From Monocercomonoides exilis PA203 (lineage: Eukaryota > Protista > Preaxostyla): a stretch of DNA of 64,000 nt. Location of the stretch: positions 930,001-994,000 of the forward strand of contig LSRY02000034.1 of the NCBI GenBank assembly GCA_001643675.2. The letters run 5' to 3'. The position numbers and the translations under genes are program-made. The notes beneath the pieces were generated by a model. It ran no database searches. It had not been told where the DNA came from and was given only the letters and a program-made list of their open reading frames with translations. Positions 9,001 through 48,234 of the stretch are shown piece after piece (positions within the stretch are counted from its first letter, which is position 1; every line of letters begins with the position of its first letter).

Positions 9001-11775
9001 TTCAGATGCAAAAAGGGAGAGTAACAAGGAGAAAGAAAAGGAGAAAGGGAAAGAGAATGAAGAAGCGAGAAAAGGTAGTTCTGATGCGAAGGATCGAGTA
9101 GGATCGCCTTCCACTGCATCTGCACAGACATCCACAGCATCCACATCTTCTTCATCTACAGCAACTGGAGGAAGCAATTCCGCTTCTTCATCAGCCGGTC
9201 CGCAGGCCAACACAAGCGAGTCTGTCCGGATGAAGCTGCTGAGAAACAAGATCGGAGCACGAAAGGGAAACACGCTGCAGTCTGCTTCTTCGTCTGGCGG
9301 AAGCGAAGACTCAGGGGAGCATCACCAGGACCCGTGGTTCTTTGTGCTGAAGTACACACTCCCGTTCACTGTGCTTGTGTTTCTGATGCTGCTGGCGATC
9401 ACATTTGTGTTTGGGAACAAGCACTCACAGGACACGCAGAACCAGCTGCTGGAGCTTGGAGAGCTTGCCCGGGCAGCCACGTACACGACAGAGCTGGCGT
9501 CGTATTCGAAGCTGTTTGAGGCGCATTACTTTGGCAGAGCTTCGTTGGACCCGCTGTATTACCCGAACATCCGCCAGGTGAAAGCGAAGATTGCGTCGCT
9601 TGCGTCGCAGCTGCACACGATGGTGGTTGGCTGGCTTGCTCCGAAGGCTCCTGCGATTGCGGGAGATGAAGGGAATACAGCAATATCATCAATGTCATTA
9701 TCAGCATCATTGTCATCAGCAGCAGGAGAATTGGCATTGAAAGGGAAAAGGAGTGAGAAAGAGATAGGGAGAACAAGAATTCCAATGAAATCTCTATCAT
9801 CAATCAATTCCAATTCCAATTTCAAATACAATAACAAAGACTATACCAGATTCAATGCCAATTCCAATGCGAATCCACAGAATGATCTTCGAGCCGAGAC
9901 GAGTGAGTGGAGTGGGGCAGCACCAGGGAGCCAGACATACACAGCTCTGAAGGAGAAAGTGTCGTGGGACATCCACACAGTTGACCACATTTCTGTGGAT
10001 TGTGTGCACAACAGCGATTCTTCGCTGACGCTGGCGCAGCAGTGGATGGTGAGGGAGTCGTTTATCAATGCGATCATCAGATACATCACAGACCTGACGA
10101 CGCTGTGTGAGCTGAGCAAAGACAGGGCGACGAGTGTTAGTGGGAGTGGGAGTGAAAGTGAGGTGATGATGATGAAAGGGGTGAATGAAGAAGTAAATAA
10201 AGAAGTGAATAATGAAACGAATGAGGAGGTGAATGAAGGATTGGATGAGAAGAACAAAGAGAACGATGCAGAAATCACTGAAATCACTGAAATGGCAGAG
10301 AAAATGGATAAAATCAGGGAAATTGTGGACAATTCATTCAACGACACTTCGTTTGATCTGTTCGAATTTCCTTCCTTTGAAGAAATTCAATCAGATGACA
10401 ACTTTAAAAAGTACTTGACGAAAATAACACGTTCGAAAAGGAGTCCAAAAATGAGGTTTGCTGATAATCCTTCACATGCACATCATCCACGAGCGAAGAA
10501 GACAAGCAAACATTATCATAAATTGGATTCTTCTCCTTCTTCTTCCATTTCATCTCCTTCTTCATCATCTTCCTCCTCCTCCTCCTCCTCTTCAACTTCA
10601 TTTTCACCTTCAAACACAGCCACTTCATCCACTTCATATTCAGATCGATTTACAATTCCACTTCAAATGAATGATCAACCGCTCAATTCACTTCAATCTC
10701 AATCATCGTTATCAACATTATCATCTTCTCCTTCTCCTTCCTCCTCCTCTTCTTCCTCTCCACTCCACACAAATTCCTATCTCTCCAACATATATCTCTC
10801 TTCTTCTTCCTCTCCATCCCCCCACCACCCCAACCTCGACTCCTCTCTGAGCGACAGCGTTGTTGCCGACATTGTCACAGACACCGCCACAAACGGTCCC
10901 ACATCGCTTCTGCAGCGCTTCAAAGAGGAGATTGTGGATGTGATGAACAAGCACATGAACTCGAACCGGGCGACGCTTGTGTGTGCGATTGTGTGCGGGT
11001 TCTTCGGGTTTATGTTTATGGTGGTGTTTATTGTGGTTGTTTATGTGCTGCTGATGCGGCTGAACAGGCAGCGGAATTCGGCTCTATTTTTCTTCCTGGC
11101 GATGCGAAGGGATGTGCTGAAGGGGATTCAGAGGAGGCTGAACATCACAGAGGATGTGGAGAAGGGGATGGAAGAGGTGGAGAAGGAGGAAGGAGAAGAT
11201 GAAGGAGAAGATGAAAGGGAAGAAGGAGAAAGTGAAGAAGAATTTGAGTGGAGAGGGAAAAAGGAGAAGAAGTCGGGGAGAAACGGAGGGAAGAGGAATA
11301 AGCAGCATCAAAAGCACAAGAGGAAGGGGAAGAAAGGAGGAAGAGAAGGAGAAGGAGAAGAAGAGGAGGAGGAAGGAGAAGAGGGAGAAGGAAGAAGAAG
11401 AGAAGGAAGAGGAAAGAAGGAGTCGAATGCGATGAGCAAGCTGAAGAAGACGGTGCGAATTAGTGCGCTTGCAAAGACAGCACTGGGAAGGCAGCTGCTG
11501 TCAGTGATGTCAAACAAAGAGGAGGAGGAGAAGGATGAAGAAGAAGAAGAAGATAATGAAGAGGAAGAGGAAGAGGAAGAAGGAGAGAAAGAGAAAGCTT
11601 CAAAGAATGACAATAGAAAAGACAGTTCTGATGCAAATAATTCGAAGGAAAAACAACAACATTCAAAACCGAATGTGACATGTTCACCTTCTCCTGCTCC
11701 TTCTCCTTCGCTCGCAAGCACCTCTTCTTCTTCGTCTTCCTCATCGTCTTCCTCTTCTTCCACTTCTTCTACACT

Positions 11776-11806
<31 letters not shown>

Positions 11807-14116
11807 TCATCCTCTTCTTCTTCAAATGCAAATGATAAAATGCTTGAAGAGACGTCAAAATCTCACAAACAGACAAAACCCCCCAAACCACCTCAAACAC
11901 CCAAGTCATCCAATCCCTCCAAGCAGAATAAGCAAATAAAGTCCATAAAGCCAATGAAACCAATCAAACAAATAAAGCCAATGAAACCAATGAAACCATC
12001 CAATGAGCCAAATGATTCAGATCTCCTTGATGCCCGTCCTCTGCTCACCACGCGCACAACACTCACGCTGGCGACACAAGCACTCGAAGTGCTGCCGGAC
12101 AGCTCGGCTGCTGTGGCTGAGACACACATCTTCACTCCCCTGGCAGTGCCCTTGCCCACACGCCGGCGGAAGAAGAGGCATTTCCAGAATGCGGTGCCGA
12201 ACTCGACGATCGGGATGATCATTGTGCTGTTTGTGATACTCACCATTGCGCTGCTGGTGGTGTCGGCGTCTGTGTCTGTGTTCACAATTGTGGTGCAGCC
12301 GTGGCCAGCGCGCGTGGGGCTGTCTGGGATGAGGGCGATTGCTGCACAGGAGATCCACTTTCTGACAACACAGGCGATGGTCCCGAACAAACAGAGGCTG
12401 CCGCTGAATGCGACGAGCGTGAGGGCGATGGCGGAGGAGATGGAGAGGGCGATGGAGGCGATGGAGGCGAGGGAAGGGGAGGTGAGGGGGAGCATGAAGA
12501 GGGCGTATCGGTCGTTGAGGCAGACGGAAAGGTTGATGGAAGAGGAAGAGGAAAAAGAAAAAGAAGAGGAGAAAAGAAGAGGAAGAGAAGGAAGTTATTT
12601 TGTTGATAACAATTCTGTTGAAAAAGAGAATGGATTGTTGGAAAACACACAAAATGAGAATATTTCCACAGACGCTTCACAAGCTATGGATATCAATTCA
12701 ATCAATTCAATCACTTCATTACCATCTGAATCATCATCATCATCATCATCTTCTTCTTCTTCTTCTTCTTCTTCATTGTCGTCTTCTTCGTCTTGTTTTA
12801 TTTCCACAGGCACCTCATCGGACACTTATCTTTCGTCTTTTCGTTCTTTGCCTTCAGACAATTCTGAAGACGATTCACATCCCATTTCACATTCCACTCC
12901 ACACACTTCACTTACAAGTGAACAACAACAATCGCATTCTCTTTCTTCTCTTTCTTCTTCTCTTTCTTCCTCAACTTCTTCCTTTTCCTCTTCTTCCTCT
13001 TCCTCCTTCACCTCTTCCACCTCTGTCCCTTCCAACATTGTTGTTGAGCTGCGCACGACCGACGGCTGGAAAGGGCTGGAGCACATGTCGCCCGACCTGA
13101 GTGTGGTGATGGCGTCTTACAAGGCGATGGGGATGTATTTGAGGAACATCCACGAGCTCTGCCGCTTCGGCAAGGACAAAGGCCGAAAGAGCGCAGACTC
13201 TGTGCTGGACTCGGTGAACATTGTGGACAAAGACACGACGAGTGTGGAGGGGCTGTTTGCCGAGCTGTACAGGGCGTCCACGTGCTATCTGCTGGACAGC
13301 GCTGAGTGCAAAGAGAAGCCGAACAGGCTGCCCACGACGGCGGTGGACGAGGGTGTTCCTCTGTTTGGGATTGAGCTGCTGCTGCAGAGGGTGCTGAAGG
13401 CGGTGGAGGAGATCAGCAGCATCGGGGTGCAGGGCGGGGCGCCGTATGCGGTGGATGGAGGGCACCCGTCAGTGGTGATGGTCAACACGCTGCTGAGGGA
13501 GGATCTGAGGGACGGGCTGGAGAAGCTGACGCGGCAGCTGACGGAGCAGTCGGTGGGGACGATCAAGAGCCTGGAGGTGTGGATATTTGTGGTGTCGGCG
13601 GTGGATCTGGTGCTGATAGTGGCGGTGTTTTTCTACATCACGTTCCATGTGCAGTCGCAGCTGGACCATGTTGCGTTCAAGACGCAGCGGATTGAGGAGC
13701 TTGTGCCGATTGAGGAGACGATGGCGATCCGGTGGGCGAAGGCGTTCAATTTGGGGGAGCAGAAGCTGGATGTGAATCATCGGCTGCTTCTGGACAGTGC
13801 AGCGCAGCTGGTGGACGAGCTAATCAAAGGCGAGGACAAGGCAGTGAGGCAGGCGGTACCGAACATGCGGCAGCTGCTGCACGGGCATCTGAAGGCAGAG
13901 GAGAAGATCATTGTGGCTGTGCAGCACCCGCGGGGCCCGCTGCTGGTGAAGCGGATGAAGGAGTTTAATGCGAAGTTTGATGAGCTGATACGGTGCTACG
14001 ACGACTCGCTGGATGTTACGGAGTCGATGTCTGCGCTGTTCAACTATTTCATCGATGTCCACATCATGGAAGACAACAAGATTCTCCACGAATTCCTGAA
14101 AGAAAAAAGAATGTGA
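6008..14116 (+). CDS. Large polytopic membrane protein, TmcB/TmcC-like (N-terminal multi-TM block, TPR-like region) with a C-terminal hemerythrin-like domain; exons 6008-6100 and 6158-14116
   Basis: The 2627-aa ORF is extended by an in-frame exon across a GT-AG intron (6101-6157). N-terminal TM helices include VDC..C..FPEIECW. TPR-like YRALLESHPFSIPVLRGYANLM. The C-terminus reads W..FNLG..LDVNH..HLKAEE..HIMED. Confidence 0.75.
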
Positions 14117-16560: not shown

Positions 16561-17211
16561 TGTGAAAAGGATGGAAAAAAGGATAAAGAAGAAGAAGAAA
16601 AGGAATGCAAGTTAATAATCTGCTGCGCTTCATAAAGTGCACTTTTGAATTTATTTATATTTTAAATAATGAAATTGTTCAGGGTTTTTCAATTTCCCTT
16701 TATGAAGTTATTTAACCAAATTTAAGTCGCATCATCTGTGTTTTCTTCGATATAAACATGAAAATATTTGCGAAATTAATTTTCAACTCATAAACTTAGT
16801 TTTTCATATGTGTTTCATAACCTCAATTTGAAATATAATTGAAACATTTCCATTTCAAAATACAAAGATCAAATAATTTGAAAAATTGTATTAATTATTA
16901 TTTAACAAGCAATACAAAAAGCATCAATAATAATTATTGAAAAAAAACCTTTTTTAGCTTAATCGCAATGGATTTCAACATTAATTTGTATATAAATAGA
17001 CTTTATTTCAAATATATCCATTTTGCTTGTATTTAATTGGTTTATATAATATGTTGGATTTTTTAAAATTTCATCTTATGAAATAATTTGTTTGCTAATT
17101 TCATAAGATTTCAAAAAAGAAACATTGAAATAATTACAACTGATGTTTTCAAGCTGTTGCTTACCGATTCGATCAATGAACATATATTCTTGTTGCACAC
17201 ACTGAAAAATA

Positions 17212-18215
17212 TAGGGTGATTTTTTTATCAGGACATTTTTTTTAATCCGGACATTTTTTTTTATTGGCGTTTCTCAATAAATAAAAACTGGAAATAGAAA
17301 AAGCATATTGAACCAGGCTTGAATACGCATTAAATGTTCATACAAAAAATTTTTCTTTTCAATTTATGTTTTTGATGAAGATCTTGGGAATTTTAAATTT
17401 ATTTTTGATCATTTGTTTTGCCCATTTTGGACTATCTTTCTTTTTTTGTTTATTTTTAACAATAAGACCATGAAACATACATAAAGAAGTTTAATTATTC
17501 CAAATGTTTTATATTTTTCTGTATTTTTTCGTGAGTTTTTCTCATTTCATCGTTTTTGACAAAAATTATGAAAAATTGAAAATTTCTTATCTGTTACTAT
17601 ATATTTCGATTATATTTACAACATGCCATGTTAAAAAGATTAAAATACATGACATATTTAATTTGTTAGTTACACTAAATTAAATTAAAAATGAAACGAA
17701 CAAATATGTATTAATCAAAAACTGATTGATACAATTGTTGCAACAATACTTCACAAGGTTATAACCAAATAAAGACTTCATAAAAAAACTTTTCTTTTCA
17801 TAGACATCATTATAAATAACCTATAAACATCATATCTTGCAAAATTTTCAATTTTTCATAATTTTTGTCAAAAACGATGAAATGAGAAAAACTCACGAAA
17901 AAATACAGAAAAATATAAAACATTTGGAATAATTAAACTTCTTTATGTATGTTTCATGGTCTTATTGTTAAAAATAAACAAAAAAAGAAAGATAGTCCAA
18001 AATGGGCAAAACAAATGATCAAAAATAAATTTAAAATTCCCAAGATCTTCATCAAAAACATAAATTGAAAAGAAAAATTTTTTGTATGAACATTTAATGC
18101 GTATTCAAGCCTGGTTCAATATGCTTTTTCTATTTCCAGTTTTTATTTATTGAGAAACGCCAATAAAAAAAAATGTCCGGATTAAAAAAAATGTCCTGAT
18201 AAAAAAATCACCCTA
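17212..18215. mobile_element. Non-autonomous Tc1/mariner-type foldback element with ~374-bp TIRs
   Basis: TA|TAGGGTG...CACCCTA|TA. The arms 17212-17585 and 17842-18215 are near-perfect reverse complements around a ~256-bp spacer. No ORF. Confidence 0.85.
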
Positions 18216-18531
18216 TATTTTGTAAAAACTAATTGATCAAATGTTAAAATTTTAATTGCAATATTTCTTAATCACAAAAACTTAAATTTTTTTCGCTTCA
18301 AAATTAACAACTATCTTAATCAGGAAAATGAATTGCATTAATTTACAATGTGCACATTCGTTATAAACAATATTTCTATATTTACTGAAGATGACTATAT
18401 CATCGTATCTAACATTTCTCTTATCAGAAATTCTGTCCCACAATTGCATTTGATTTAAAATGATCTGATATTTCATTTAGAAAAAGGGTTCTTGATCAAT
18501 AAAAAACATCTCTCGATCATCACAAATCCAC

Positions 18532-21500
18532 ATGAGAAACGATGTTGATCCGATGAGTAATTGCGCTTCTGACAGATTGGAAATGAGCAAGTGGACAGAA
18601 TATAGCGGAACTTTTGGTGATAAAGATGGAAGAACAAAGGCAATGCATTATATCATTAACACCAAAACTGAACCTCCAGAAAGGATGAGGCACGATGTTA
18701 CTCTTGCTGATGATAACGGATGGACAATGGCAATGATATGGATAATATATATAAAAACAGAGCCACCGCAGTGGATGAGACACAAAGTTACATTGTGTGA
18801 TGTTCTAGGACAGACAATGGCCATGATATGGATTGCAAATGTCAAAACAGAGCCGCCAGAATGGATGAGGCACTATACTTCATTTACAGATGAGAATGGT
18901 GAAACAATGGCCATGCTCTGGATTGAAAATGTGAAGACAGAGCCACCAGAATGGATGAGACACGATATTACTCTTGTTGATGGCGAAGGACGCACAATGG
19001 TCATGTTATGGGTACAGAATGTTAATACAAAACCACCGAAGTGGATGAATTATGACAATACGCTTCGTGATGATGATGGAAGAACGGATGCAATGAATTG
19101 GGTTAAGGAGAAAAAAATTGAACCACCACAATGGATGAGACATGAAGTTACTCTTGCTGATAAATATGGACAGACAATGGCCATGTACTGGATTCGATAT
19201 GTGAAGACAGAACCACCAGTATGGATGAGACACGATATTACTCATGTTGATAGCGAAGGACGCACAATGACCATGCACTGGATTGCAAATATGAAGACTG
19301 AACCACCGAAGTGGATGAATTATGACAATACGATTAGAGATAAATATGGCAGAACAGATGCAATGAATTGGATCATGAAGAACAAAAATGAGCCACCAGA
19401 ATTCATGAGACACGATATTACTCTTGGTGATAAATATGGTAAAACAATGGCCATGATATGGATAGAAAATGTCAAAACAGAACCACCAGATTGGATGAGA
19501 CATGACAAAAAACTTACTGATAAGGAAGGACAGACAATGGCCATGTTCTGGATTGAAAATGTCAAAACAGAACCACCAGAATGGATGAGACATGATATTA
19601 CACTTGTTGATAACAACGGATGGACGATGGCCATGATGTGGATTTATCATGTCAAAGCAGAACCACCAGATTGGATGAGACATGATATAACGATTTCTCA
19701 AAAGGGTGAATGGACTATGGCAATGATATGGATTCATTTTATTCAAACAGATCCACCAGAATGGATGAGACATGACAAAACAATTGCTGATAGCAGTGGA
19801 CAGACAATGGCCATGTACTGGATTCAATATGTGAAGACAGAACCTCCGGAATGGATGAGACACGATATAACTCTTGTTGATGGAGAAGGAAGCACAATGG
19901 CCATGTACTGGATTCAATATGTGAAGACAGAACCTCCGGAATGGATGAGACACGATATAACTCTTGTTGATGGGGAAGGACGCACAATGGCCATGTACTG
20001 GATTGAAAATGTGAAGACAGAACCTCCAGAATGGACGAGATATCACATAACACTTTGTGATAAATATGGACAGACAATGGCCATGTACTGGATTCGATAT
20101 GTGAAGACAGAACCACCAGTATGGATGAGACACGATATTACTCATGTTGATAGCGAAGGACGCACAATGACCATGCACTGGATTGCAAATATGAAGACTG
20201 AACCACCGAAGTGGATGAATTATGACAATACGATTAGAGATAAATATGGCAGAACAGATGCAATGAATTGGATCATGAAGAACAAAAATGAGCCACCAGA
20301 ATTCATGAGACACGATATTACTCTTGGTGATAAATATGGTAAAACAATGGCCATGATATGGATAGAAAATGTCAAAACAGAACCGCCAGAATGGATGAGA
20401 CATGATATTTCAATAAAAGGAGACATTTGGCATCGAACAATGGCCATGTTCTGGATACAATATGTCAAAACAGAACCACCTGAATGGATGAAGCATGAAA
20501 TTACACTTGCTGATGAGTTCAGTTACACAATGGCCATGATATGGATTCAGTATGTTGAAACAGAACCACCAGATTGGATGAGGCATGATATTACACTTGG
20601 AAAAGGAAGATCCGGTACAATGGCCATGATATGGATTGAAAATATCAAAACAGGTCCACCAGAATGGATGAGACATGATATTACACTTGTTGGTAGCAGA
20701 GGAAAAACAATGGCCATGCACTGGATTGAATATGTGAAGACAGAGCCACCCAAGTGGATGAGGCATGACAAAACTCTTGCAGATAAGAATGGTGAAACAA
20801 TGGCCATGTACTGGATTGAAAATGTGAAGACAGAACCACCAGTATGGATGAGACATGGAATTACACTCGGAAAAGGAGAAAGTGAAACAATGGCTATGAA
20901 ATGGATTGAAAATGTCAAAACAGAACCACCAGAATGGATGAGACACGGAATTACTCTTGTAGATAACAGAGGACAGACAATGGCCATGCACTGGATTGAA
21001 TATGTGAAGACAGAGCCACCAGAATGGATGAGACATGATATTACAATAAATGGAGGTATTTTGGAACGAACAATGGCCATGTACTGGATTCGATATGTGA
21101 AGACAGAACCACCCGAATGGATGAGACACGATATTACTCTTGGTGATGAATATGGTAAAACAATGGCCACGACATGGATAGAAAATGTCGAAACTGAACC
21201 ACCAGAATGGATGAGACATGACAATACGATTAGAGATAAATATGGCAGAACAGATGCAATGAATTGGATCATGAAGAACAAAAATGAGCCACCAGAATTC
21301 ATGAGACACGATATTACTCTTGGTGATAAATATGGTAAAACAATGGCCATGATATGGATAGAAAATGTCAAAACAGAACCACCAGATTGGATGAGACATG
21401 ATATTACACTCGGAAAAGGAGAAAGTGGAACAATGGCCATGTTCTGGATTGAAAATGTCAAAACAGGTCCACCAGAATGGATGAGACATGACAAAACGCT

Positions 21501-22425
21501 TGCTGATAGCAGTGGACGGACAATGGCCATGTACTGGATTCAATATGTGAAGACAGACCCACCAGAGTGGATGAAACACGATATTACAATTAAAAATGGT
21601 TGGAGAAAACAGACAATGGCCATGTATTGGATTGAATATGTGAAGACAGAGCCACCAGAATGGATGAGACACGGAATTACTCTTGAAGATAACAGAGGAC
21701 AGACACAGGCCATGTATTGGATTGAAAATTTGAAGACAGAACCTCCGGAATGGATGAGACACGGAATCACTCTTGTAGATAACAGAGGACAGACAATGGC
21801 CATGTTCTGGATTGAAAATGTGAAAACAGAGCCACCAGAATGGATGAGACACGGAATAACGCTTGCTGATAAGGATGGATGGACAATGGCCATGTTATGG
21901 ATTCGATATGCGAAGAAAGAACCACCAGAATGGATGAGACACGATATTACTCTTTCCGATGAGAATGGTGAAACAATGGCCATGATATGGATTGAAAATG
22001 TCGAAACAGAACCACCAGAATGGATGAGACATGACAAAAAACTTACTGATAAGGAAGGACAGACAATGGCAATGCACTGGTTCGCAATATTCAAAACAGA
22101 ACCACCCAAGTGGATGAGGCATAGTAAAACAGTTGCTTATAAAGAAGGAAAAACAATGGCCATGCTCTGGATTGAATATGTGAAGACAGAGCCACCCAAG
22201 TGGATGAGGCATGACAAAACTCTTGCAGATAAGAATGGTGAAACAATGGCCATGTACTGGATTGAAAATGTGAAGACAGAACCACCAGTATGGATGAGAC
22301 ATGACAAAGAAATTGAAGGTGGGATTTGGGGACGAACAATGGCCATATATTGGATTGAATATGTCAAAACAGATCCACCCAGGTGGATGAGGACAAAACG
22401 ACCCAAGTGGATGAAGAAAGATTAA
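18532..22425 (+). CDS. Intronless 1297-aa tandem-repeat protein: 42 copies of a 30(31)-aa ankyrin-like unit DxxGxTMAMxWIxxVKTEPPxWMRHDxTLx
   Basis: Uninterrupted ORF with 90-nt periodicity; repeats counted by hand. Confidence 0.9.
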   Translation: MRNDVDPMSNCASDRLEMSKWTEYSGTFGDKDGRTKAMHYIINTKTEPPERMRHDVTLADDNGWTMAMIWIIYIKTEPPQWMRHKVTLCDVLGQTMAMIWIANVKTEPPEWMRHYTSFTDENGETMAMLWIENVKTEPPEWMRHDITLVDGEGRTMVMLWVQNVNTKPPKWMNYDNTLRDDDGRTDAMNWVKEKKIEPPQWMRHEVTLADKYGQTMAMYWIRYVKTEPPVWMRHDITHVDSEGRTMTMHWIANMKTEPPKWMNYDNTIRDKYGRTDAMNWIMKNKNEPPEFMRHDITLGDKYGKTMAMIWIENVKTEPPDWMRHDKKLTDKEGQTMAMFWIENVKTEPPEWMRHDITLVDNNGWTMAMMWIYHVKAEPPDWMRHDITISQKGEWTMAMIWIHFIQTDPPEWMRHDKTIADSSGQTMAMYWIQYVKTEPPEWMRHDITLVDGEGSTMAMYWIQYVKTEPPEWMRHDITLVDGEGRTMAMYWIENVKTEPPEWTRYHITLCDKYGQTMAMYWIRYVKTEPPVWMRHDITHVDSEGRTMTMHWIANMKTEPPKWMNYDNTIRDKYGRTDAMNWIMKNKNEPPEFMRHDITLGDKYGKTMAMIWIENVKTEPPEWMRHDISIKGDIWHRTMAMFWIQYVKTEPPEWMKHEITLADEFSYTMAMIWIQYVETEPPDWMRHDITLGKGRSGTMAMIWIENIKTGPPEWMRHDITLVGSRGKTMAMHWIEYVKTEPPKWMRHDKTLADKNGETMAMYWIENVKTEPPVWMRHGITLGKGESETMAMKWIENVKTEPPEWMRHGITLVDNRGQTMAMHWIEYVKTEPPEWMRHDITINGGILERTMAMYWIRYVKTEPPEWMRHDITLGDEYGKTMATTWIENVETEPPEWMRHDNTIRDKYGRTDAMNWIMKNKNEPPEFMRHDITLGDKYGKTMAMIWIENVKTEPPDWMRHDITLGKGESGTMAMFWIENVKTGPPEWMRHDKTLADSSGRTMAMYWIQYVKTDPPEWMKHDITIKNGWRKQTMAMYWIEYVKTEPPEWMRHGITLEDNRGQTQAMYWIENLKTEPPEWMRHGITLVDNRGQTMAMFWIENVKTEPPEWMRHGITLADKDGWTMAMLWIRYAKKEPPEWMRHDITLSDENGETMAMIWIENVETEPPEWMRHDKKLTDKEGQTMAMHWFAIFKTEPPKWMRHSKTVAYKEGKTMAMLWIEYVKTEPPKWMRHDKTLADKNGETMAMYWIENVKTEPPVWMRHDKEIEGGIWGRTMAIYWIEYVKTDPPRWMRTKRPKWMKKD

Positions 22426-23597: not shown

Positions 23598-25660
23598 GTA
23601 GATAGAAATTTAAATAATAAAAATTAATTGATATGTATTTATTCTTTATGAAATATAACAAATGCGGTGAATATATATATATTTTTATTTTTTTAATGTT
23701 CATTTTCAATTTTCAAATGAACAATGGGTTGTGCCGTGATCATTTTTTTATGGTATAAATTCCACGGCATTCACGTCACTGCCTGTCACTGACTTAATTC
23801 AATTCAATAAGTCATTTTTGAAAATGTTTATGTTTTTTTCAGGTTGAAACTATTCTTTTATAAAATTTTTAACTTTTTGAAGTCAGACAATTATTGTAAG
23901 AAAATAATTTTTTATTTTTTTCTGAATTTTTCTTTTATTTTTTTTTATTCATTCAAATTATAAGAGCTTGTTTTTCACAAACAGCTGTAACAAACTAATG
24001 AGATGCTTCTCAAAACATAAACAGTTGTTTGAGTTTGGACCCTGAGTTTCAGGAGCGAATGGCTGTTCGGTGGAAGGTGGTGTTTTCATCTTCTATGGCG
24101 GGGATCAGGACAGAGCGGTTAGCTTACAAAGCGCTGGCATTTGCGGAGGAGCATCTGGACAACGAGGCGAAGAAGAAGTATCATGCGGTGGTGTGCCCTC
24201 TGATATTCACGAGTGGGAGCTGGATGCAGGGAAAGCAAAAGAAGCTGTTGTTGGTGGCTGAGGAGTGCGTTATGATGGGGACAGAGCAAAGCAAGAGTTA
24301 GTCGGATGCGATTAGGGGGTGAGAGGGAGTGTGGAGAGGAAGAGCGTGGGGGCAACAAGTTAGTCCTTTCTTCCGGCGCAGAGCTGTGAGATTGATCATC
24401 AATGGGAATATACAGCTAGAGTTCGAATGGAAGGAGCTGCGATTAGCTGTTTTCACTTCCTAAAACCTGTGTGTGGAGAAAATTGAGGAGAGCGGATTGT
24501 GACACACCGTTTTGATCATGCAAGGAAGATCACCGAAAGTCAGGGAAACAGGAGGATCGGACAGGAGGTGTTTGAAAAGAGCGAAGCAGAAGAGGAGGTG
24601 ATGGAGCGGGTTGGAGGAAAAGGTGAAAAAGGGAAGGAATGGGAGGAGAAAGAGGAAGGATGAAAGTATTATGAGACATCAGCGATTGTGCCGAAGGGAA
24701 AAGGGGAAGGGGCAGGCAGGAGGCAGAGTCTGCATGAAAGGTGTTGGTGGCCGAACATCCTGTTTATTGGGATGAGAGCGGTGGAGAAGGTGGTGCTGTT
24801 AGTGACTGTGGAGTGCTGTGTGTGGCAGCAGTGACAGAGTGGAAGATCAAAGCGGAGGAAGTGGAAATGGAAGTGGAAGATGAAGAGGAATGAGAGGACG
24901 AAGCAGAGTGAGGGCTGTGGAGAAATCTGCTGCTGCAGTGATTTTTTTTCAAACAAATTCATAATAAAGTGTTTTTAATTTATATTCATTGATAAGAATT
25001 CTCTCATGTCAATAACACACAGAATAACATATCAAATGTTTTTTTTTGTTTTAATAAACAATTGTTAAATTAAAATGTTAAATCGTCTTAAGAGAATTGC
25101 AAAAAAACAATATGAAAAATATGATAATTATGTCGATTTTTGTAAAAAAAAAACTTTTTTAACATGAATAATCACTCAGATTTAAAGATTAAAAAAAATG
25201 AATAAAAATAAAAACGAGACACTGAAAATAAAGCTTCTAGAACATTTTAAAATGAATAGGTAAATCTTGATGGAAATTTCCATAGAATGATATGACTTCT
25301 GTCGAAGTGAATAATAGTACTTAAATATAACAAGATTTTTTAAAGGTTTGTTGTGGAAAAGCTATTTTTTCTTAACAATAAGAAATGTTCAAAATTGATT
25401 TATGTTATTGATTATAATCAATTATTTATTAATATAAATAAGTTTGCTTTTATCAAAAAAAAAAGTGCCGGGCACTGACTGACGGGAGCCCGACTTTTTG
25501 AAGGTGATGCAGATGTTCACTTTGTTCTTTTGTTTTTGTGATTATTATGAGCAATGTTTGTGTTGTTGTTTTCTACAAATTATGAAGATTTCGAAACAAA
25601 ATTAACACAAAAAATAAAATCTAGACGAAACATTAAACACTTGTTTCCTTTCATAAAAAA

Positions 25661-27005
25661 AGAGATATGGTATATCAGCTATGGATCCATCTCGATGAGG
25701 TCTATCAGTATTATCGATTTATGAATATCTTGTGGTTGTTATCATCTTGTATAATAAGTTGAATAGGCAATGATAATAAGATAGAGATCGATAATTATTG
25801 CTGATACTCTTAGGGGTTTCTCATGATTAGATATTCAGTGATGTTCTATATAGATGGAGTTATTGATAAGTGTAATCGAGATATATCCATAGCTGATATA
25901 CCATATCTCCTAGGAGGAGAATTAGCTAAAAGATTAACCAAAGTGTCGAACGGAGACGTAAGTCTCCTGAGGAACGTTGTTCCGAAATTGGTAAATTAAT
26001 GGTGAATTTGTGTGAAAATTGATGTTTTCGTTGATGAAATACATGATTTGAACACGTTTGTTTGTAATAACAGGTGTGTGTGTGTTAAATCTGTTGGTGT
26101 GATCGTTGGTGTGATCGTAAATAAAAATAATTGATTTTGTTTTTTTGTTTTATCGTAAATGGGTCGGAAGAAGATATACGCAACTGTGGAAGAAGCGAAA
26201 AAGGCTCAACAGAAACAAATTAAACAGTTTCAGGAAAAACGTAAAGAAGAAACTAAAGATTACAACGAACATGTAACTGAGAAACAGAAGAAGTTGATTA
26301 AGATATTGAGGAGAAAGGTTATCGAAAGTGATGAGCTGTTAGATGAGTTGATGGAAAAAGTTAGTGGTTATTGTTTGAACAAGCTTGATTGTGATAAATG
26401 TGTTAATTAATGAAATATAACTGACTACACACGTTTGTTGTATGGTTTGTTGAATCAAACAGTGGTCACGATGACGTTATAGTTGATTGCCAACATCAAT
26501 ATTTTTACTTGAAAAAGTGGTAAAACGGTAGTCAGGATACCGAATTGTGGCAATATCGAGATGCTTGGGGAAGGGAAATATTGAGTTAAATCTCCGTGCT
26601 GGAAGCGTAGTCAGGTAGTCAGGTAGTCAGGATCTTTTAAGTTCATCTGAAAAGAGCTGCCAACATGCCATTTCTGCCAACATGAGCAATTTACCCCTAA
26701 TTTACCATGATTTTGAGGTGTTTTATTTATTTTCGACTGTGTTGTCATTTTGCCACATTGCCACATGGAATCATTGATGGTATATAACAAGTGGCATACA
26801 CTTTTTGTAACGTTAGTTGTTCCAAACAGAGGTTTTGCCTGGACAGGATAAGCTGGTCAGGTAATGTGGGTGATGCTGTGGCTGGGAAATATTGAGTTAA
26901 ATCTCCGAGCTTTTCACCTGCACAGGGTGCACAGGGTGCACAGGATGCACAGGATAAATTAAATTCTCTAAAATATGTGGGCAAACGGGCAAACTGAGCA
27001 AAGTG
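25661..27005 (+). repeat. Left terminal inverted repeat (1,345 bp)
   Basis: No mismatch noticed against the right arm by eye; imperfect similarity continues ~20-30 bp further inward. Confidence 0.95.
26159..26410 (+). CDS. 83-aa basic/coiled-coil protein encoded in the left TIR
   Basis: ATG-initiated MGRKKIYATVEEAKKAQQKQIKQFQEKRKEE..., with an identical copy in the right TIR. Confidence 0.7.
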   Translation: MGRKKIYATVEEAKKAQQKQIKQFQEKRKEETKDYNEHVTEKQKKLIKILRRKVIESDELLDELMEKVSGYCLNKLDCDKCVN

Positions 27006-27151
27006 GGCTAAATAAATTTAATGTGAAAATTAACTGTTTCCGTTCTTTTTCGACATTAACTTCAACATCATCTTCCCCGTAAATTTCGTTTCAAAAATAA
27101 ATCTGTTTAAATAAAAATTTGTTTTTTTCATTTGTATTAAAATTGGCAACC

Positions 27152-29413
27152 ATGAGCAAAAGCATAATCGAATTAATCGGTGAAAACAGTCAAACGGTTC
27201 AACTCCTTATTAGCATGGAAGAAAAAACATTGAATGAAAGAATTGATTCAAACGTTGTTGATTTATTCAATTATCAAAAGCATGATGGAGGCAGTGGCTC
27301 TGTTGTTACTGGAAGAGCAGTGTTGGTGAACGAAGTGTCAAATTCAACTGTTATCGACATTGATATTAACAAATCGTTTGACGATGAGTCCAAACAATCT
27401 GTTAGATCAAAGATATTAAACAAACTTGACGAAGACGATATCGTTGTTCAAACAGCTTCTGGGGGATTACACATTTATGCAAATACCGATGACTTTTACG
27501 CCAACTCCAACAGAATGATTAAATGTTACACTTGCGATGAATTTGATGTAGATATCATGACATCGTTGGACGAAAGCAAACGATCATTAATTGTATTACC
27601 AAACAGCAAAGTGCGTAAGGATCATCGATCAAAGACAAATGTTTATCAGCTTGTTAGAGGTTCGTTTGACTCAGCAATTACACGAAATGTTAATGAAATA
27701 TTGAATGATCTCTCATTGAAACTGTTCATAAAAACATCTGACGAAATAGAGTATATCGTTAAATTAGATGACGACAATGACAATATCAGTGACGAATTAG
27801 CTAATGTTTTAGTCAACGGGTTGGAGTGTTCTGTCATACATAACGATGGGGGTAATATGCCAATCAACAGAGAAGTCACGTTTTTCACACTGTTTCAAGC
27901 AATTAATTCATTACCGAACGAGTATGTCGAATTAGCTTACGACAGAGTACTAAACAGTGACAATTTGACAGCGAACGCTCGTGATAACTATTTCATTGCA
28001 AAACAACGATACAGATGTTTGAGATCATCGCCATTTGTGTTAGTTAAGATGTACAAAATATGGAATAATGACTATTACACAAACGAGATATTACCGTTAC
28101 TGAGAAACGACACAAATATTGTTAAACCATTAGATATGTCTGAATCGTTTTCCATGACAGACATTCGACGAAAAGCTGAGACAAAACAATATAAAAACGC
28201 TGATGATGTTATTAGTGATTTGTCGAGAGTTATTCGATTTATAGAAACAGGAGCGATGTATATACAAAAAGATTTCAATATATTCGATAAACGTTGGGGG
28301 ATAACATTTATAACAGACACTAATATGACACGTAACTTAAAGATGATTAAACTGTGGAAAACTGAACATCAAACAACAACAGCATATGACATTCTACTGT
28401 CTTGTTTGTCGAAACTAACATTGCAAGGTGTTATGTTTAACGCAAAAGATACAGCTAATGCATTCTCGATATTTCAAGGTTTCAAGTACAATTTACGTGA
28501 AAGTTTCGATATGGAAACAATCTCAATGTTTCTGGACTTTGTTCGTGAGGTAATTGCTGATTCCAACAACGATGTATATGAATATGTTATTAACTGGATT
28601 GCCAACATTGTTCAACATCCTGGAATAAAAAATGAAACAGCATTGATATTGAAAGGTATTCAAGGTATTGGGAAAAACAGATTCACAGATGTTATATCTG
28701 AACTATTCGCTGGTTATTCCAGTCGAAATGTTACAGAAATTGGAGAATTGACTGGAAACTTCAACTCTGTTGTTGAAAGCAAAATGTTGATTGTTTTGAA
28801 TGAACTGAAAAATTGTGGAGACGATAGACTTGCAAATTTCAATGCGTTGAAGTCGGTAATAACAGAAAACATTATTAGAATGAACGAGAAGAATCAACCT
28901 CGTAGAACCGCTGAGAATGTAGTTAATTTTATATTTGTGACAAACCACGCATTTCCAGTCAAGATTGAAACAGGTGATAGGAGATATGTTGTTCTTGCAT
29001 GTAATGGTAAATACAAGAACAATTTCGATTATTTCAAACAATTATGTTCTTCATTTACGACAGAGTTTTATGACAATTTGCTCACATATTTGATGAACAA
29101 AGACCTTTCATCATTTAAAGTTAGATCAATACCAATGACAGAGGCTAAAATGGATATTATAGAAGCGAGCAAAAGTCCGTTGGAAATGTGGATATGCAAT
29201 CATTACGACGAGCTATGTGTTGGAATGAATTGTACAGATGCTCTCCTCTGTAAGCCTGTTGAAATCAAAGATAGAAACTTCCAACTGCAACTGATAGATA
29301 AATGTGAGCATAAACAGAAATCTATAAATGGAAAACGTTCATGGCATTATATATTGAAAGATGAATGCAAACTGTTGTACAAACAAACTGTATCTGACGA
29401 TGAGGATAATTAA
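27152..29413 (+). CDS. AEP primase-polymerase (Prim-Pol) fused to a D5/NrS-1-like superfamily 3 helicase, 753 aa, intronless
   Basis: N-terminus: VIDID, VQTASGGLHIY, DVDI, IVLPNS. C-terminus: YVINWIANIVQHPG, Walker A GIQGIGKN, Walker B LIVLNE, motif C FVTNH, Arg finger GDRRY. First ATG at 27152. Confidence 0.88.
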   Translation: MSKSIIELIGENSQTVQLLISMEEKTLNERIDSNVVDLFNYQKHDGGSGSVVTGRAVLVNEVSNSTVIDIDINKSFDDESKQSVRSKILNKLDEDDIVVQTASGGLHIYANTDDFYANSNRMIKCYTCDEFDVDIMTSLDESKRSLIVLPNSKVRKDHRSKTNVYQLVRGSFDSAITRNVNEILNDLSLKLFIKTSDEIEYIVKLDDDNDNISDELANVLVNGLECSVIHNDGGNMPINREVTFFTLFQAINSLPNEYVELAYDRVLNSDNLTANARDNYFIAKQRYRCLRSSPFVLVKMYKIWNNDYYTNEILPLLRNDTNIVKPLDMSESFSMTDIRRKAETKQYKNADDVISDLSRVIRFIETGAMYIQKDFNIFDKRWGITFITDTNMTRNLKMIKLWKTEHQTTTAYDILLSCLSKLTLQGVMFNAKDTANAFSIFQGFKYNLRESFDMETISMFLDFVREVIADSNNDVYEYVINWIANIVQHPGIKNETALILKGIQGIGKNRFTDVISELFAGYSSRNVTEIGELTGNFNSVVESKMLIVLNELKNCGDDRLANFNALKSVITENIIRMNEKNQPRRTAENVVNFIFVTNHAFPVKIETGDRRYVVLACNGKYKNNFDYFKQLCSSFTTEFYDNLLTYLMNKDLSSFKVRSIPMTEAKMDIIEASKSPLEMWICNHYDELCVGMNCTDALLCKPVEIKDRNFQLQLIDKCEHKQKSINGKRSWHYILKDECKLLYKQTVSDDEDN

Positions 29414-29464
29414 TAATAACAGAAATGTCACCGTTATATTTTATCACATTAAATGTATTTTGCT

Positions 29465-30809
29465 CACTTTGCTCAGTTTGCCCGTTTGCCCACATATTTT
29501 AGAGAATTTAATTTATCCTGTGCATCCTGTGCACCCTGTGCACCCTGTGCAGGTGAAAAGCTCGGAGATTTAACTCAATATTTCCCAGCCACAGCATCAC
29601 CCACATTACCTGACCAGCTTATCCTGTCCAGGCAAAACCTCTGTTTGGAACAACTAACGTTACAAAAAGTGTATGCCACTTGTTATATACCATCAATGAT
29701 TCCATGTGGCAATGTGGCAAAATGACAACACAGTCGAAAATAAATAAAACACCTCAAAATCATGGTAAATTAGGGGTAAATTGCTCATGTTGGCAGAAAT
29801 GGCATGTTGGCAGCTCTTTTCAGATGAACTTAAAAGATCCTGACTACCTGACTACCTGACTACGCTTCCAGCACGGAGATTTAACTCAATATTTCCCTTC
29901 CCCAAGCATCTCGATATTGCCACAATTCGGTATCCTGACTACCGTTTTACCACTTTTTCAAGTAAAAATATTGATGTTGGCAATCAACTATAACGTCATC
30001 GTGACCACTGTTTGATTCAACAAACCATACAACAAACGTGTGTAGTCAGTTATATTTCATTAATTAACACATTTATCACAATCAAGCTTGTTCAAACAAT
30101 AACCACTAACTTTTTCCATCAACTCATCTAACAGCTCATCACTTTCGATAACCTTTCTCCTCAATATCTTAATCAACTTCTTCTGTTTCTCAGTTACATG
30201 TTCGTTGTAATCTTTAGTTTCTTCTTTACGTTTTTCCTGAAACTGTTTAATTTGTTTCTGTTGAGCCTTTTTCGCTTCTTCCACAGTTGCGTATATCTTC
30301 TTCCGACCCATTTACGATAAAACAAAAAAACAAAATCAATTATTTTTATTTACGATCACACCAACGATCACACCAACAGATTTAACACACACACACCTGT
30401 TATTACAAACAAACGTGTTCAAATCATGTATTTCATCAACGAAAACATCAATTTTCACACAAATTCACCATTAATTTACCAATTTCGGAACAACGTTCCT
30501 CAGGAGACTTACGTCTCCGTTCGACACTTTGGTTAATCTTTTAGCTAATTCTCCTCCTAGGAGATATGGTATATCAGCTATGGATATATCTCGATTACAC
30601 TTATCAATAACTCCATCTATATAGAACATCACTGAATATCTAATCATGAGAAACCCCTAAGAGTATCAGCAATAATTATCGATCTCTATCTTATTATCAT
30701 TGCCTATTCAACTTATTATACAAGATGATAACAACCACAAGATATTCATAAATCGATAATACTGATAGACCTCATCGAGATGGATCCATAGCTGATATAC
30801 CATATCTCT
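29465..30809 (-). repeat. Right terminal inverted repeat (1,345 bp)
   Basis: Reverse complement of 25661-27005. Confidence 0.95.
30060..30311 (-). CDS. Second identical copy of the 83-aa TIR-encoded protein
   Basis: Identical translation to 26159-26410. Confidence 0.7.
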   Translation of the reverse strand: MGRKKIYATVEEAKKAQQKQIKQFQEKRKEETKDYNEHVTEKQKKLIKILRRKVIESDELLDELMEKVSGYCLNKLDCDKCVN

Positions 30810-31149
30810 AAGAAATGAGTTTGTTGACATGAAAAACGAGAAATAAAAGAGCCAATATTGCATATAACATTCTTCATTAATTGTGAAAAAATATAAATGA
30901 AAAGTTTTAGCAAATCTTTTGAAAAGCAGTATTCTTTCAATTGGAATAAGAAAAAAATATGTTAGAATTTTTCTCACATTTTTTATTTTTATTATTGGAC
31001 AAAAGAAGGCAAAGAAAAACATCGGAAACAAGATGAAAAATCATTTAAATAACAAATATTATTGATATATACACAATAAGATTGTTTATTGACTTTTATT
31101 GAATTTTGTCAACTCTTTGAAATTTTGAAAAATACCAAACTTTCGACTT

Positions 31150-40239: not shown

Positions 40240-41270
40240 TTGTCAACTTAATCTGAATTGTTTCAATTGTTACAACAAAAATTATTCAAATTGAGAAATT
40301 TTGCATTCAAAAAAATAAAATTTGCATTCATAATAATAATTTTAGCAAACAAAATGAGAACTTTTGCGTTCAAAATTGAAATTTTGCAAACAAATTTATA
40401 ATTTTTTCTAACGAAATAATAATTTTTGAATTCGAATTAATAATTGTTGAAAACCTAACAAAATTTTGTTCACTCTCTCACGAAATTTTGTGAAAATCAT
40501 TTTTTTAACATTTGAATCGGAAATTATTTTATGTAGCTTTTGCAGTTTGTGCAAATAATCCCTGACAAGATCAATATCTCAATAACAGCATGAAGGAAAA
40601 TTCTGATAATTTTCCTCAAAATATATCTCATCAAAACAAACTCACGTGACATACAAGACTTTCAGGATAGCTTAGCTTGAGCTCTGAAAAAATAATATTG
40701 ACAATTTTGGCAAAACTGAATTTAGAATTTTACAGAAATTTTCTAAATTATATTTTCAGAGCTCAAGCTAAGCTATCCTGAAAGTCTTGTATGTCACGTG
40801 AGTTTGTTTTGATGAGATATATTTTGAGGAAAAGTATCAGAATTTTCCTTCATGCTGTTATTGAGATATTGATCTTGTCAGGTATTTTTTGTGATGTCCG
40901 GTATTTTTTGCACAAACTGTATTTTCATGTGCGTTAAAAAAATTTTTGAAATGTTTTATATTTCCTGAAATTTTTAATAATTTCATATAATTTTTATTCA
41001 TATGATAACATTAGATATTTTCATTTCGAATGCAAAAATTTTTATTTCGTTTGATATTTTTTCATTTCGAACGCAAAAATTATTAATTTGAATGAAAAAT
41101 TATTCTTTTGAATGAAAATATTATTAATTCGTTAGCAAAATTATAAATTCGATTGCAAAAATTCTCATTTGGGTCATTTTTTTTGAAAAGTCGCAAACGT
41201 TTAACTGATCTGAAAATCAGATCAAAAATGATCAAAAAATGTTGATCATTCCGTTTCCATTATATATTGC
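40240..41270. repeat. Older degenerate foldback with inverted ~21-bp tandem arrays hosting the MITE
   Basis: tttgcattcaaaa..-type units at 40280-40450 are mirrored at 41020-41170. A related end appears inverted at ~46590-46690. Confidence 0.5.
40543..40919. mobile_element. 377-bp Tc1/mariner-type MITE
   Basis: CAGTTTGTGCAAA...TTTGCACAAACTG followed by TA (the left flank is TG). Internal arms ~40562-40690 and ~40753-40882 are almost perfect inverted repeats. Confidence 0.8.
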
Positions 41271-47037: not shown

Positions 47038-48234
47038 TGTGTTTTTTATTATTATTTTCATTGAAATTTTTTTGCCCCGTTCTCTGTGAATATACCATAA
47101 TTTTTTTGGTGTAACTTATTATTTGTAAGAAAAATTTTAATTCAATTTCTTTGGGAAAAATAATGAACCAATTTTTAGCATTTTTCAAATATTTCTTGAA
47201 AATTATTATGAAACAGCTATTTAATTGAATTACAATCATCAACACAAATAACTATTCACTGTAAAATTCTGCGTACTCACCATGTTTATTCATATTTTTT
47301 TTTTTTTTGAGACATCAATTGAGAATCTGCACCTGTTCATTTTGAGTGCATATCTATTAAGGAATATGTGAGATTTCATAAAGCTAAACAGTTGAACCGA
47401 GACAAAAACAGACATCAAAATAATAAATTCAAATTTAAAAATATCAAATTTCACTCTTTTATTTTCAAAAGTGAAATAATCATTCAGTTGTGTGCAATTT
47501 GAACAGCTGAAGATTTAAATCCCAAAAGCAAAATAGAATCAAACACATTTCAAAATTTTAAATTTGCGCAATAAAAACATAAAAATTATTGATTATGAAA
47601 TTCATAATAACAAATGCACCTCAAACAACAAATGGGACAGAATTTTTTCTTTTATGAAAAAAACCATGTATTGTTCCAAACTTATTCTGCATTCTAGTCA
47701 TAATGTTTATAGTCCAATGAAACAAAAAAAGGAATTGAAAACCATTCCAAAATAAATGTTTATTTTGAGTTTAAGAAACAATTCAATATAAAAAGAAATA
47801 TTTGGAAAAGGAATCGAAAATGAGCGACAAAGATTAATTTTTGTATTTGCAAATATGAATAATATGAAAACAAACATAATTGAATTGTCTGAGTGACATT
47901 TGAAGGTTTGTATTGATGAGCGATATTTTGTTAGAATAAGTTATAGCTAAATAAAAAAAATTAATCATTCAAACGGAAATTGAAAGTGAAAGCGACAATT
48001 TAGGAGGCACAGAATTCAATATTTAATTCAGGAAATGAAAAGAAGAAAAAGAAGAAGCTGAAAGCGGCGAATAAAAAAAAGGTTTAAACATTGCAAAATA
48101 ATGGAGAAGGAGAATCACAACTTATTTGGCTTTTTGTCTTTCTTTATCTCCTTCTTTTCTCTATCTTCTTCTTTCATAAGATGCCTCACGAATATTATCA
48201 GAAATTGCATTGAGATAATACCATTGGTGCTTAA

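What the first reader, a model, noticed from the sequence alone, without database searches (positions are those of the whole stretch)
25661..30809. Minimal primase-helicase replicon with 1.3-kb inverted termini integrated in a protist genome
Seen: a discrete 5,149-bp unit whose two 1,345-bp arms show no mismatch by eye. The 2.46-kb core is almost entirely one intact, intronless AEP Prim-Pol + SF3 helicase ORF, and each arm carries a small inward-pointing ORF. Known: Prim-Pol/D5-type fusions replicate plasmids, phage satellites, NCLDVs and some Polinton-like viruses. TIR DNA transposons encode a transposase, Polintons encode pPolB + integrase + capsid, transpovirons encode an SF1 helicase, and parvoviruses encode an HUH-SF3 Rep. 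None of these hallmark genes is present. Inference: this is a self-priming linear plasmid or viral-satellite-like element, recently inserted or homogenised by replication, that fits no class I can name.
Basis: partly seen in the sequence, partly recalled or inferred. Interest (0 to 1): 0.93.

Follow-up and report, generated by a model that had tools for sequence, protein, structure and literature searches.

The report
Polinton-derived primase-helicase mini-element
A 5-kb mobile DNA in a gut protist's genome carries one primase-helicase gene between two identical 1.3-kb inverted arms; it is likely a stripped-down offshoot of Polinton virus-like transposons that would copy itself but would borrow a helper element's integrase to insert.

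Summary
The unit is 5,149 bp, with perfect 1,345-bp inverted arms, an intact 753-aa AEP primase-polymerase + SF3 helicase gene and an 83-aa ORF in each arm. It is a real mobile family: contigs from four DNA runs of one sample break at the exact left terminus into unrelated flanks, and diverged copies join arm to gene. The host is Monocercomonoides exilis or nearly so. 'Fits no class' is overstated. A 52%-identical full-length relative sits beside a protein-primed PolB, an A32-like ATPase and a Trichomonas Maverick gene. The ends look Polinton-like: AG...CT, with 6 extra bases against an empty paralogous site. The host has six published capsid-gene loci that could act as helpers. A 2026 preprint already proposes mobile AEP-SF3 modules. 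New here: a discrete, chromosomal, multi-site family with no integrase, PolB or capsid, and a 248-nt fold-back at each end. Best reading: a Polinton-derived mini-replicon inserted in trans (0.5). Main rival: a plain deletion derivative whose gene is a passenger (0.27). A free linear form and enzyme activity were not tested.

The parts
25655..25660 (.). left copy of a probable 6-bp target-site duplication (AAAAAA)
   Evidence: Right copy is AAGAAA (5 of 6 match). The filled site has 6 more bases here than an empty paralogous site. A 5/6 match arises by chance in 2-4% of flank 6-mers.
25661..27005 (+). left terminal inverted repeat, 1,345 bp, begins 5'-AG
   Evidence: loose ends at exactly 25661 in 8 contigs (X1) and 7 contigs (X2), flank agreement about 0.5
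25662..25909 (.). terminal fold-back: 25-bp perfect stem (35 bp at 94%) closing a 248-nt imperfect hairpin
   Evidence: (z -7.1); the 8 paired inner sites that vary in other copies show no compensating change
26159..26410 (+). 83-aa basic ORF in the left arm, function unknown (DNA-binding is a guess from composition)
   Evidence: only homologue found is M. exilis MONOS_17995, 88%; no Pfam family above cut-off
26520..27005 (.). short-repeat array in the inner arm (GTAGTCAGG x3, GCACAGG x4, a 41-bp direct repeat at 88%); candidate replication origin
   Evidence: origin role is inference
27152..29413 (+). 753-aa AEP primase-polymerase + helical PriCT-like domain + SF3 helicase
   Evidence: D69, D71, D134 invariant in 71 rows, H107 in at least 90% of 67 rows; Walker A G502-K508
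29465..30809 (-). right terminal inverted repeat, identical to the left, ends CT-3'
30060..30311 (-). second copy of the 83-aa ORF
30561..30808 (.). terminal fold-back of the right arm
30810..30815 (.). right copy of the probable target-site duplication (AAGAAA)

Best explanation
This is a multi-copy mobile element of an oxymonad, likely reduced from a Polinton/Maverick to its two ends plus the primase-helicase gene; it would copy itself with that enzyme and would be inserted by the integrase of a helper Polinton. Shown: the layout, the domain identities, intact catalytic motifs, many insertion sites sharing one terminus, and a close relative of the gene inside a pPolB/ATPase-bearing contig. 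Inferred: (1) the SF3 helicase loads at the short-repeat array in the inner arms and unwinds. (2) The AEP domain primes and extends without a terminal protein; the 3' terminal fold-back could also self-prime, replacing the protein priming lost with pPolB. (3) Displaced single strands close into a 1.3-kb panhandle, which keeps the two arms of one copy identical while copies drift 10-15% apart. (4) A resident Polinton's retroviral-type integrase acts in trans on the AG...CT ends and leaves a 6-bp duplication.
For: Mobility: heterogeneous loose ends at exactly 25661 in 8 and 7 contigs; an empty paralogous site, joint 25613-30809, in 2 of 4 runs. Same layout in other copies: diverged contigs (28-38 differences) bridge the arm/5'-core boundary in all four runs, and a joint 27008-29426 puts an arm next to the gene's 3' end in all four. 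Polinton ancestry: L015 carries a 52%-identical AEP-SF3 gene (contig ends at query residue 658) next to a pPolB-like ORF (Atlas 0.96, 10 of 10 best family hits agree; motifs seen, labels recalled), an A32-like ATPase and DUF4108, both just under their Pfam cut-offs. DUF4108 is a class-3 Trichomonas Maverick gene, and 'Poxvirus D5 protein' is listed in 8.6% of 1,705 TvMav3 copies (PMC12289875 Suppl. Tables 4-5). L002 has an A32 ATPase above cut-off and L003 a pPolB fragment beside helicase relatives. The helicase tree puts the window's protein in a 51-row clade with L015 (SH-aLRT 91, unstarred; quick tree). Ends: TIR length and TSD fall in the Polinton ranges of 100-1500 bp and 5-8 bp, and 9 of 13 canonical T. 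vaginalis Mavericks begin with AG. Helper: 6 capsid-gene loci are reported in M. exilis (PMC10120064 Tables S1/S4).
Against: No helper with these termini was seen, because no host genome was held. The TSD has one mismatch in A-rich DNA and rests on a diverged paralogue. Selection on the gene within this family is not shown: 7 of 20 listed differences are synonymous against 0.20 expected (p 0.09, no correction for transition bias). The other annotated host copies at 85-97% are fragments or split. None of the 7 related loci examined (L001-L005, L015, L016) shows long inverted arms, so the layout is known from this one host only. In polisuviruses AEP replicases go with tyrosine recombinases, not DDE integrases (preprint passage). 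All read evidence comes from one sample. No RNA or activity data.
Confidence: 0.5

Rival explanations
1. A plain internal-deletion derivative of a host Maverick. The helper's pPolB and integrase copy and insert it through the TIRs, and the primase-helicase is a surviving passenger.
For: Short canonical T. vaginalis Mavericks of 5.9 and 8.3 kb exist. The gene is found inside Maverick-like DNA (L015). Selection within the family is not shown. Summed contig depth is about ten times higher on the outer arm than on the core, so a larger family shares the ends (depth is not copy number).
Against: Several diverged copies keep the same arm-to-gene junctions on both sides, which fits a propagating unit better than scattered deletions. 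TvMav3, the class carrying primase and DUF4108, has 100-130-bp TIRs rather than 1.3 kb. None of 9 L015 ORFs, including pPolB and ATPase, matches the window at E <= 1. All catalytic motifs are intact.
Confidence: 0.27
2. A self-sufficient new class: AEP-SF3 plus terminal fold-backs carry out both replication and insertion, for example by templated synthesis into host breaks, with no integrase.
For: Only one enzyme is encoded, yet there are many insertions. The fold-back is stable. Barth et al. propose independently mobile AEP-SF3 genes, including 11 extra copies in Bodo saltans virus (section 13), and the top three viral fold hits of the N-terminal model are Bodo saltans virus primases. T. vaginalis has two clusters of 198 and 350 related sequences under non-Maverick names.
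Against: Base-exact termini at many sites, AG...CT ends and 6 extra target bases fit an integrase better than break-filling (inference). No nuclease domain was found. No inverted (flip/flop) hairpin joint appeared among the 15 joints shown (35 not shown). Inner hairpin pairs are not conserved.
Confidence: 0.13
3. A foldback or composite transposon: two inverted MITE-like 250-bp end units, moved by an unrelated DDE transposase, captured a Polinton gene as cargo.
For: Each end unit is bounded by its own 25-35-bp inverted repeat. The window holds several other foldback units.
Against: No loose ends at 25910 among the rows shown. Other copies continue past the fold-back into diverged arm sequence (loose ends at 25938, agreement 0.66-0.95). 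The other foldbacks share no sequence with this element.
Confidence: 0.07
4. Assembly artefact: a chimeric or folded-back long read, or polishing that made two arms identical.
For: No exact contig bridging this copy's host junctions is among the rows shown.
Against: Both flanks are halves of one host repeat whose empty form exists. An exact arm contig has double the depth of the exact junction contig. Other copies have the same junctions.
Confidence: 0.03

Closest known systems
Maverick/Polinton elements of metamonads (T. vaginalis TvMav3; the Maverick-like contig L015)
   Same: AEP-SF3 (D5-like) gene at 52-59% identity; long TIRs; 5'-AG start; probable 6-bp TSD; chromosomal, multi-copy
   Different: No pPolB, integrase, ATPase, protease or capsid; 5.1 kb against 13-25 kb; arms make up 52% of the unit and end in a 248-nt fold-back. 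Whether the T. vaginalis 59% relatives lie inside Mavericks could not be checked.
Mobile AEP-SF3 replicase modules proposed by Barth, Ha and Aylward (bioRxiv 10.64898/2026.10.13.758929, section 13)
   Same: An AEP-SF3 gene with no integration gene; one reported element consists solely of an AEP gene; repeats bracket some replicase modules
   Different: Their cases lie within polisuvirus or giant-virus genomes, and the Bodo saltans virus copies lack flanking repeats. This one is a TIR-bounded family at many host chromosomal sites with defined ends. Their figures and supplements were not visible to me.
Transpovirons
   Same: Capsid-less, linear-looking, helicase-bearing reduced relatives of Polinton-like viruses (functional analogue)
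   Different: SF1 helicase, 6-8 genes and dependence on mimiviruses (PMC3671162 passages); here AEP-SF3, 2 genes, no giant-virus link known
Plasmid pRN1 ORF904 and phage NrS-1 primase-polymerase-helicases
   Same: Domain architecture and folds
   Different: Prokaryotic replicons; 13-20% identity in the structural alignments; no TIR-bounded chromosomal form
Parvoviruses/densoviruses with ITRs (recalled, not read here)
   Same: About 5 kb, inverted terminal repeats ending in fold-backs, SF3 helicase
   Different: No HUH nuclease and no capsid gene; the N-terminal domain is AEP

Membership tests
Polinton/Maverick | protein-primed PolB | tested here: not met
   no such ORF; L015 pPolB finds nothing in the window
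Polinton/Maverick | retroviral-type integrase | tested here: not met
   apart from the 753-aa gene, no ORF within the unit exceeds 112 aa; no integrase family in the 3 element proteins scanned
Polinton/Maverick | packaging ATPase, protease, capsid proteins | tested here: not met
Polinton/Maverick | 13-25 kb length | tested here: not met
   5,149 bp; range
Polinton/Maverick | TIRs of 100-1500 bp | tested here: met
   1,345 bp; range
Polinton/Maverick | 5-8-bp target-site duplication | tested here: inconclusive
   6 extra bases against a diverged empty paralogue, 5 of 6 match, 2-4% by chance
Polinton/Maverick | 5'-AG ... CT-3' termini | tested here: met
   9 of 13 canonical TvMavs start with AG; the general rule is recalled, its source paper was not held
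Polinton/Maverick (non-autonomous derivative) | an autonomous partner with the same TIRs in the same genome | not testable with these tools
   no host genome held; six MCP loci reported, their ends not seen
Polinton-like virus with AEP-SF3 replicase | AEP-SF3 replicase | tested here: met
Polinton-like virus with AEP-SF3 replicase | major capsid protein and a recombinase or integrase | tested here: not met
Transpoviron | SF1 helicase, 6-8 genes | tested here: not met
   SF3 helicase, 2 genes; definition
Transpoviron | free linear form associated with a giant virus | not testable with these tools
   only assembled contigs were available; they cannot show molecule ends
Mobile AEP-SF3 module (Barth et al. 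preprint) | AEP-SF3 gene without an integration gene, with signs of mobility | tested here: met
   concept
Mobile AEP-SF3 module (Barth et al. preprint) | AEP domain clusters with polisuvirus replicases | not tested
   their sequence set was not available; only the helicase tree was built
Parvovirus-like rolling-hairpin replicon | HUH Rep and capsid | tested here: not met
   best folds are AEP; geminivirus Rep domains appear only at E 0.13
Parvovirus-like rolling-hairpin replicon | flip/flop terminal hairpins | tested here: inconclusive
   both ends have the same orientation; no inversion joint among 15 shown of 50
Cut-and-paste TIR transposon | DDE transposase | tested here: not met

The most novel reading that the evidence does not exclude
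A new class of eukaryotic DNA transposon that encodes only a primase-polymerase-helicase. It primes on its own terminal fold-backs, writes itself into chromosomes without any integrase, and accounts for hundreds of unexplained D5-like genes in Trichomonas, Histomonas, oxymonads and gut metagenomes.
Probability: 0.13. Interest if true: 0.88.

Novelty: new variant of a known kind. Interest (0 to 1): 0.56.

Why it matters
It is a clean example with defined ends of something so far only proposed: a Polinton-type replication gene living as its own mobile element, without capsid, PolB or integrase. A 5-kb unit with one soluble enzyme, in a cultured protist, makes two open questions testable: whether AEP-SF3 proteins can replicate a eukaryotic mobile element alone, and how Polinton replicases are exchanged. 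If it proves a plain deletion derivative, it is a routine non-autonomous Maverick.

Tried and rejected
No host genome was held, so copies and helpers could not be listed. IMG/VR scans with the protein, the N-terminal alignment, a degenerate motif and the L015 ATPase found no relative; one search gave 9 distant helicases at 25-31%. No RNA holder was listed, which says nothing about expression. Rfam gave 0 matches at E <= 1 over 25400-31100. The sigma-70 scan gave 3 sites against 6.2 expected, which is irrelevant for a eukaryote. The arm ORF has no similarity to the small L015 ORF. Of the 58 best full-length homologues, 38 lie on contigs of 3 kb or less and 3 on contigs over 5.2 kb. That would fit breaks at TIRs, but short contigs are the norm, so I give it no weight. 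No fused integrase or nuclease family was seen in 11 longer homologues scanned. pPolB in L015 is not found by Pfam, PHROGs or PDB sequence search; that call rests on the Atlas and on motifs. The synonymous/non-synonymous tally was inconclusive. The VIA-align search was never obtained. The careful tree did not finish, so the quick tree is cited; 9 of 107 input rows were dropped (helicase match under 170 aa) and 3 IMG/VR rows were added as outgroup. Earlier scan notes returned nothing. Literature searches listed no paper describing a TIR-bounded AEP-SF3-only family in metamonads. Most subscription journals and Repbase are outside the library, so this is not proof of absence.
Full report
1. Observation. 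The unit spans 25661-30809. Its arms are exact reverse complements for 1,345 bp and continue for 24 bp with 4 mismatches. The 2,459-bp core holds one ORF of 753 aa from ATG 27152, and each arm holds an inward-pointing 83-aa ORF. GC is 36% in the arms and 33% in the core, against 22-24% in the flanks. Two features were not in the finding. Each arm opens with a 248-nt fold-back closed by a perfect 25-bp stem (-42 kcal/mol, z -7.1, 0 of 200 shuffles as stable). The inner arm carries an array of short repeats.

2. The protein. The C-terminal part matches DUF5906 at E 1e-19 and the NrS-1 helicase by sequence (E 1.7e-20) and by fold. No N-terminal Pfam or PHROG family matched. A model of residues 1-327 (pLDDT 89.4, pTM 0.85) finds the pRN1 primase-polymerase at ranks 1-4, then CAPP and NrS-1 Prim-Pol; TM-scores are modest because helical domains are placed differently. 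The Atlas gives Prim-Pol and PriCT_2 clusters. D69, D71 and D134 are invariant in 71 rows and H107 is kept in at least 90% of 67 rows; naming these AEP motifs I-III is from recall. The helicase has Walker A at 502-508 and a family-wide NE in Walker B. The enzyme looks intact. Its activity is untested.

3. Host and family. The arm ORF is 88% identical to M. exilis MONOS_17995. A 732-aa protein listed without name, which the tool does for a protein the window encodes, clusters at 90% with M. exilis proteins. Five other annotated M. exilis proteins match at 85-97%, all partial or split, and nine more match at 43-68%. Four DNA runs, all one sample and one study, hold the element. Contigs break at exactly 25661 into unrelated AT-rich flanks in 8 (X1) and 7 (X2) cases, so this is a true mobile end used at many sites. 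Contigs with 28-38 differences bridge the arm and the 5' core in all four runs. A joint 27008-29426 on opposite strands, one contig in each run, places an arm just after the stop codon in another copy. A joint 25613-30809 in X1 and X2 is an empty paralogue of the host repeat the element sits in. Against it the filled site has 6 extra bases, AAAAAA beside AAGAAA. Summed depth is roughly 20-30 times single-copy over the ORF in X1 and about ten times higher again on the outer arm. The tool warns this is not copy number, so I use it only as a hint that more elements share the ends than share this core.

4. Relatives elsewhere. A search near full length gave 94 hits; the best 58 are 48-59% identical, mostly from unnamed metagenome contigs, plus T. 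vaginalis (59%) and Histomonas (56%). Streblomastix and Tritrichomonas appear among shorter hits. The N-terminal region alone finds 226 clusters at 50% identity. Context was available for 7 loci. L015, a 9.4-kb contig in a sheep-colon MAG, has a 52%-identical gene next to DUF4108 (26.7 bits, cut-off 27), an 837-aa pPolB-like ORF and an A32-like ATPase. L002 has a helicase-only relative beside an A32 ATPase, L003 has a frameshifted relative beside a pPolB fragment, and L001 has an HNH gene. L004, L005 and L016 showed no hallmark gene; not all their ORFs were scanned. So 3 of 7 have Polinton hallmark neighbours and 0 of 7 show long arms. In T. vaginalis, DUF4108 and a primase-domain gene are typical of class-3 Mavericks, and 'Poxvirus D5 protein' occurs in 8.6% of them. 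I could not test whether those genes are the ones found here. The helicase tree groups the window's protein with L015 in a 51-row clade with moderate support.

5. Mechanism. Shown: layout, domains, mobility, and the Polinton context of a relative. Inferred: descent from a Maverick-type element by loss of everything between the ends except the primase-helicase. Replication by that enzyme follows from what pRN1- and NrS-1-type proteins do (established knowledge, recalled). On the + strand the 3'-terminal T would face a G at the base of the right fold-back, so the end could prime itself; the AEP could also prime de novo. A panhandle intermediate would explain identical arms within a copy while copies differ. 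Insertion needs a nuclease the element lacks. Exact ends, AG...CT and 6 extra target bases fit a Polinton integrase acting in trans, and six capsid-gene loci are reported in this host. Against this reading: no helper with these ends was seen; the TSD is imperfect; selection on the gene in this family is not shown (7 of 20 synonymous, p 0.09); inner hairpin pairs are broken rather than compensated in other copies; and AEP replicases usually pair with tyrosine recombinases.

6. Comparison and novelty. It is not a Polinton, PLV, transpoviron, parvovirus or cut-and-paste transposon by their defining genes. It works most like a transpoviron: a reduced, capsid-less Polinton relative. Barth, Ha and Aylward already propose mobile AEP-SF3 modules and mention one element made solely of an AEP gene, so the concept is in print. 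A TIR-bounded chromosomal family with terminal fold-backs was not found in my nine literature searches. I rate it a new variant of a known kind, interest 0.56.

7. What I saw of each paper. PMC12289875: passages; supplement 1 part 1 of 2; supplement 3; supplement 5, all parts, with sequences cut to 400 letters; one keyword search of all supplements (file 8 was cut when stored and may hold TE coordinates bearing on point 4). PMC10120064: passages and the M. exilis rows of Tables S1 and S4 (file cut when stored). PMC11296320: passages and section 9 part 1. bioRxiv 10.64898/2026.10.13.758929: abstract, passages and section 13; no figures, supplements closed. PMC7845603, PMC8767320, PMC3671162, PMC6431247 and bioRxiv 10.1101/2023.08.22.554363: passages. 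Kapitonov and Jurka 2006 and Koonin and Krupovic 2017 were not held, so anything from them is recalled.

Noticed in passing
window 17206-18221: Non-coding unit with perfect 380-bp inverted arms around 256 bp; ends read TA|TAGGGTG...CACCCTA|TA if cut at 17212/18215, suggesting a Tc1/mariner-type MITE (type recalled). No similarity to the element.
   Followed up: partly
window 48220-50416: Foldback unit with 950-bp arms at 99% around 297 bp, with no ORF of 200 aa or more and no similarity to the element.
   Followed up: partly
window 40561-40882 and 2463-2737: Two further short foldbacks with perfect stems of 25 bp or more.
   Followed up: no
window 18532-22425: 1,297-aa intronless ORF of about 40 repeats of 30 aa (W..MRHD motif, 90-bp period), with no convincing Pfam domain.
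   Followed up: partly
window 6158-14116: An open frame of 2,652 codons with S- and E-rich low-complexity tracts; not examined.
   Followed up: no
window 26107-26371: The arm ORF region has the highest summed contig depth in the element, about 20-30 times the core in X1, hinting that it also occurs in a larger family.
   Followed up: partly
L015:1-9384: A contig binned into a bacterial MAG from sheep colon is a eukaryotic Maverick-like fragment. It carries a divergent pPolB (YCQIDS in place of the usual motif C) that Pfam misses, together with an AEP-SF3 gene; PMC3671162 calls this pairing uncommon.
   Followed up: partly
proteins P0003 and P0139 clusters: T. vaginalis has two clusters of 198 and 350 related sequences; the named members seen are Prim-pol, P4-primase, VapE or hypothetical rather than Maverick genes (15 of each listed). 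Their genomic layout is unknown.
   Followed up: partly
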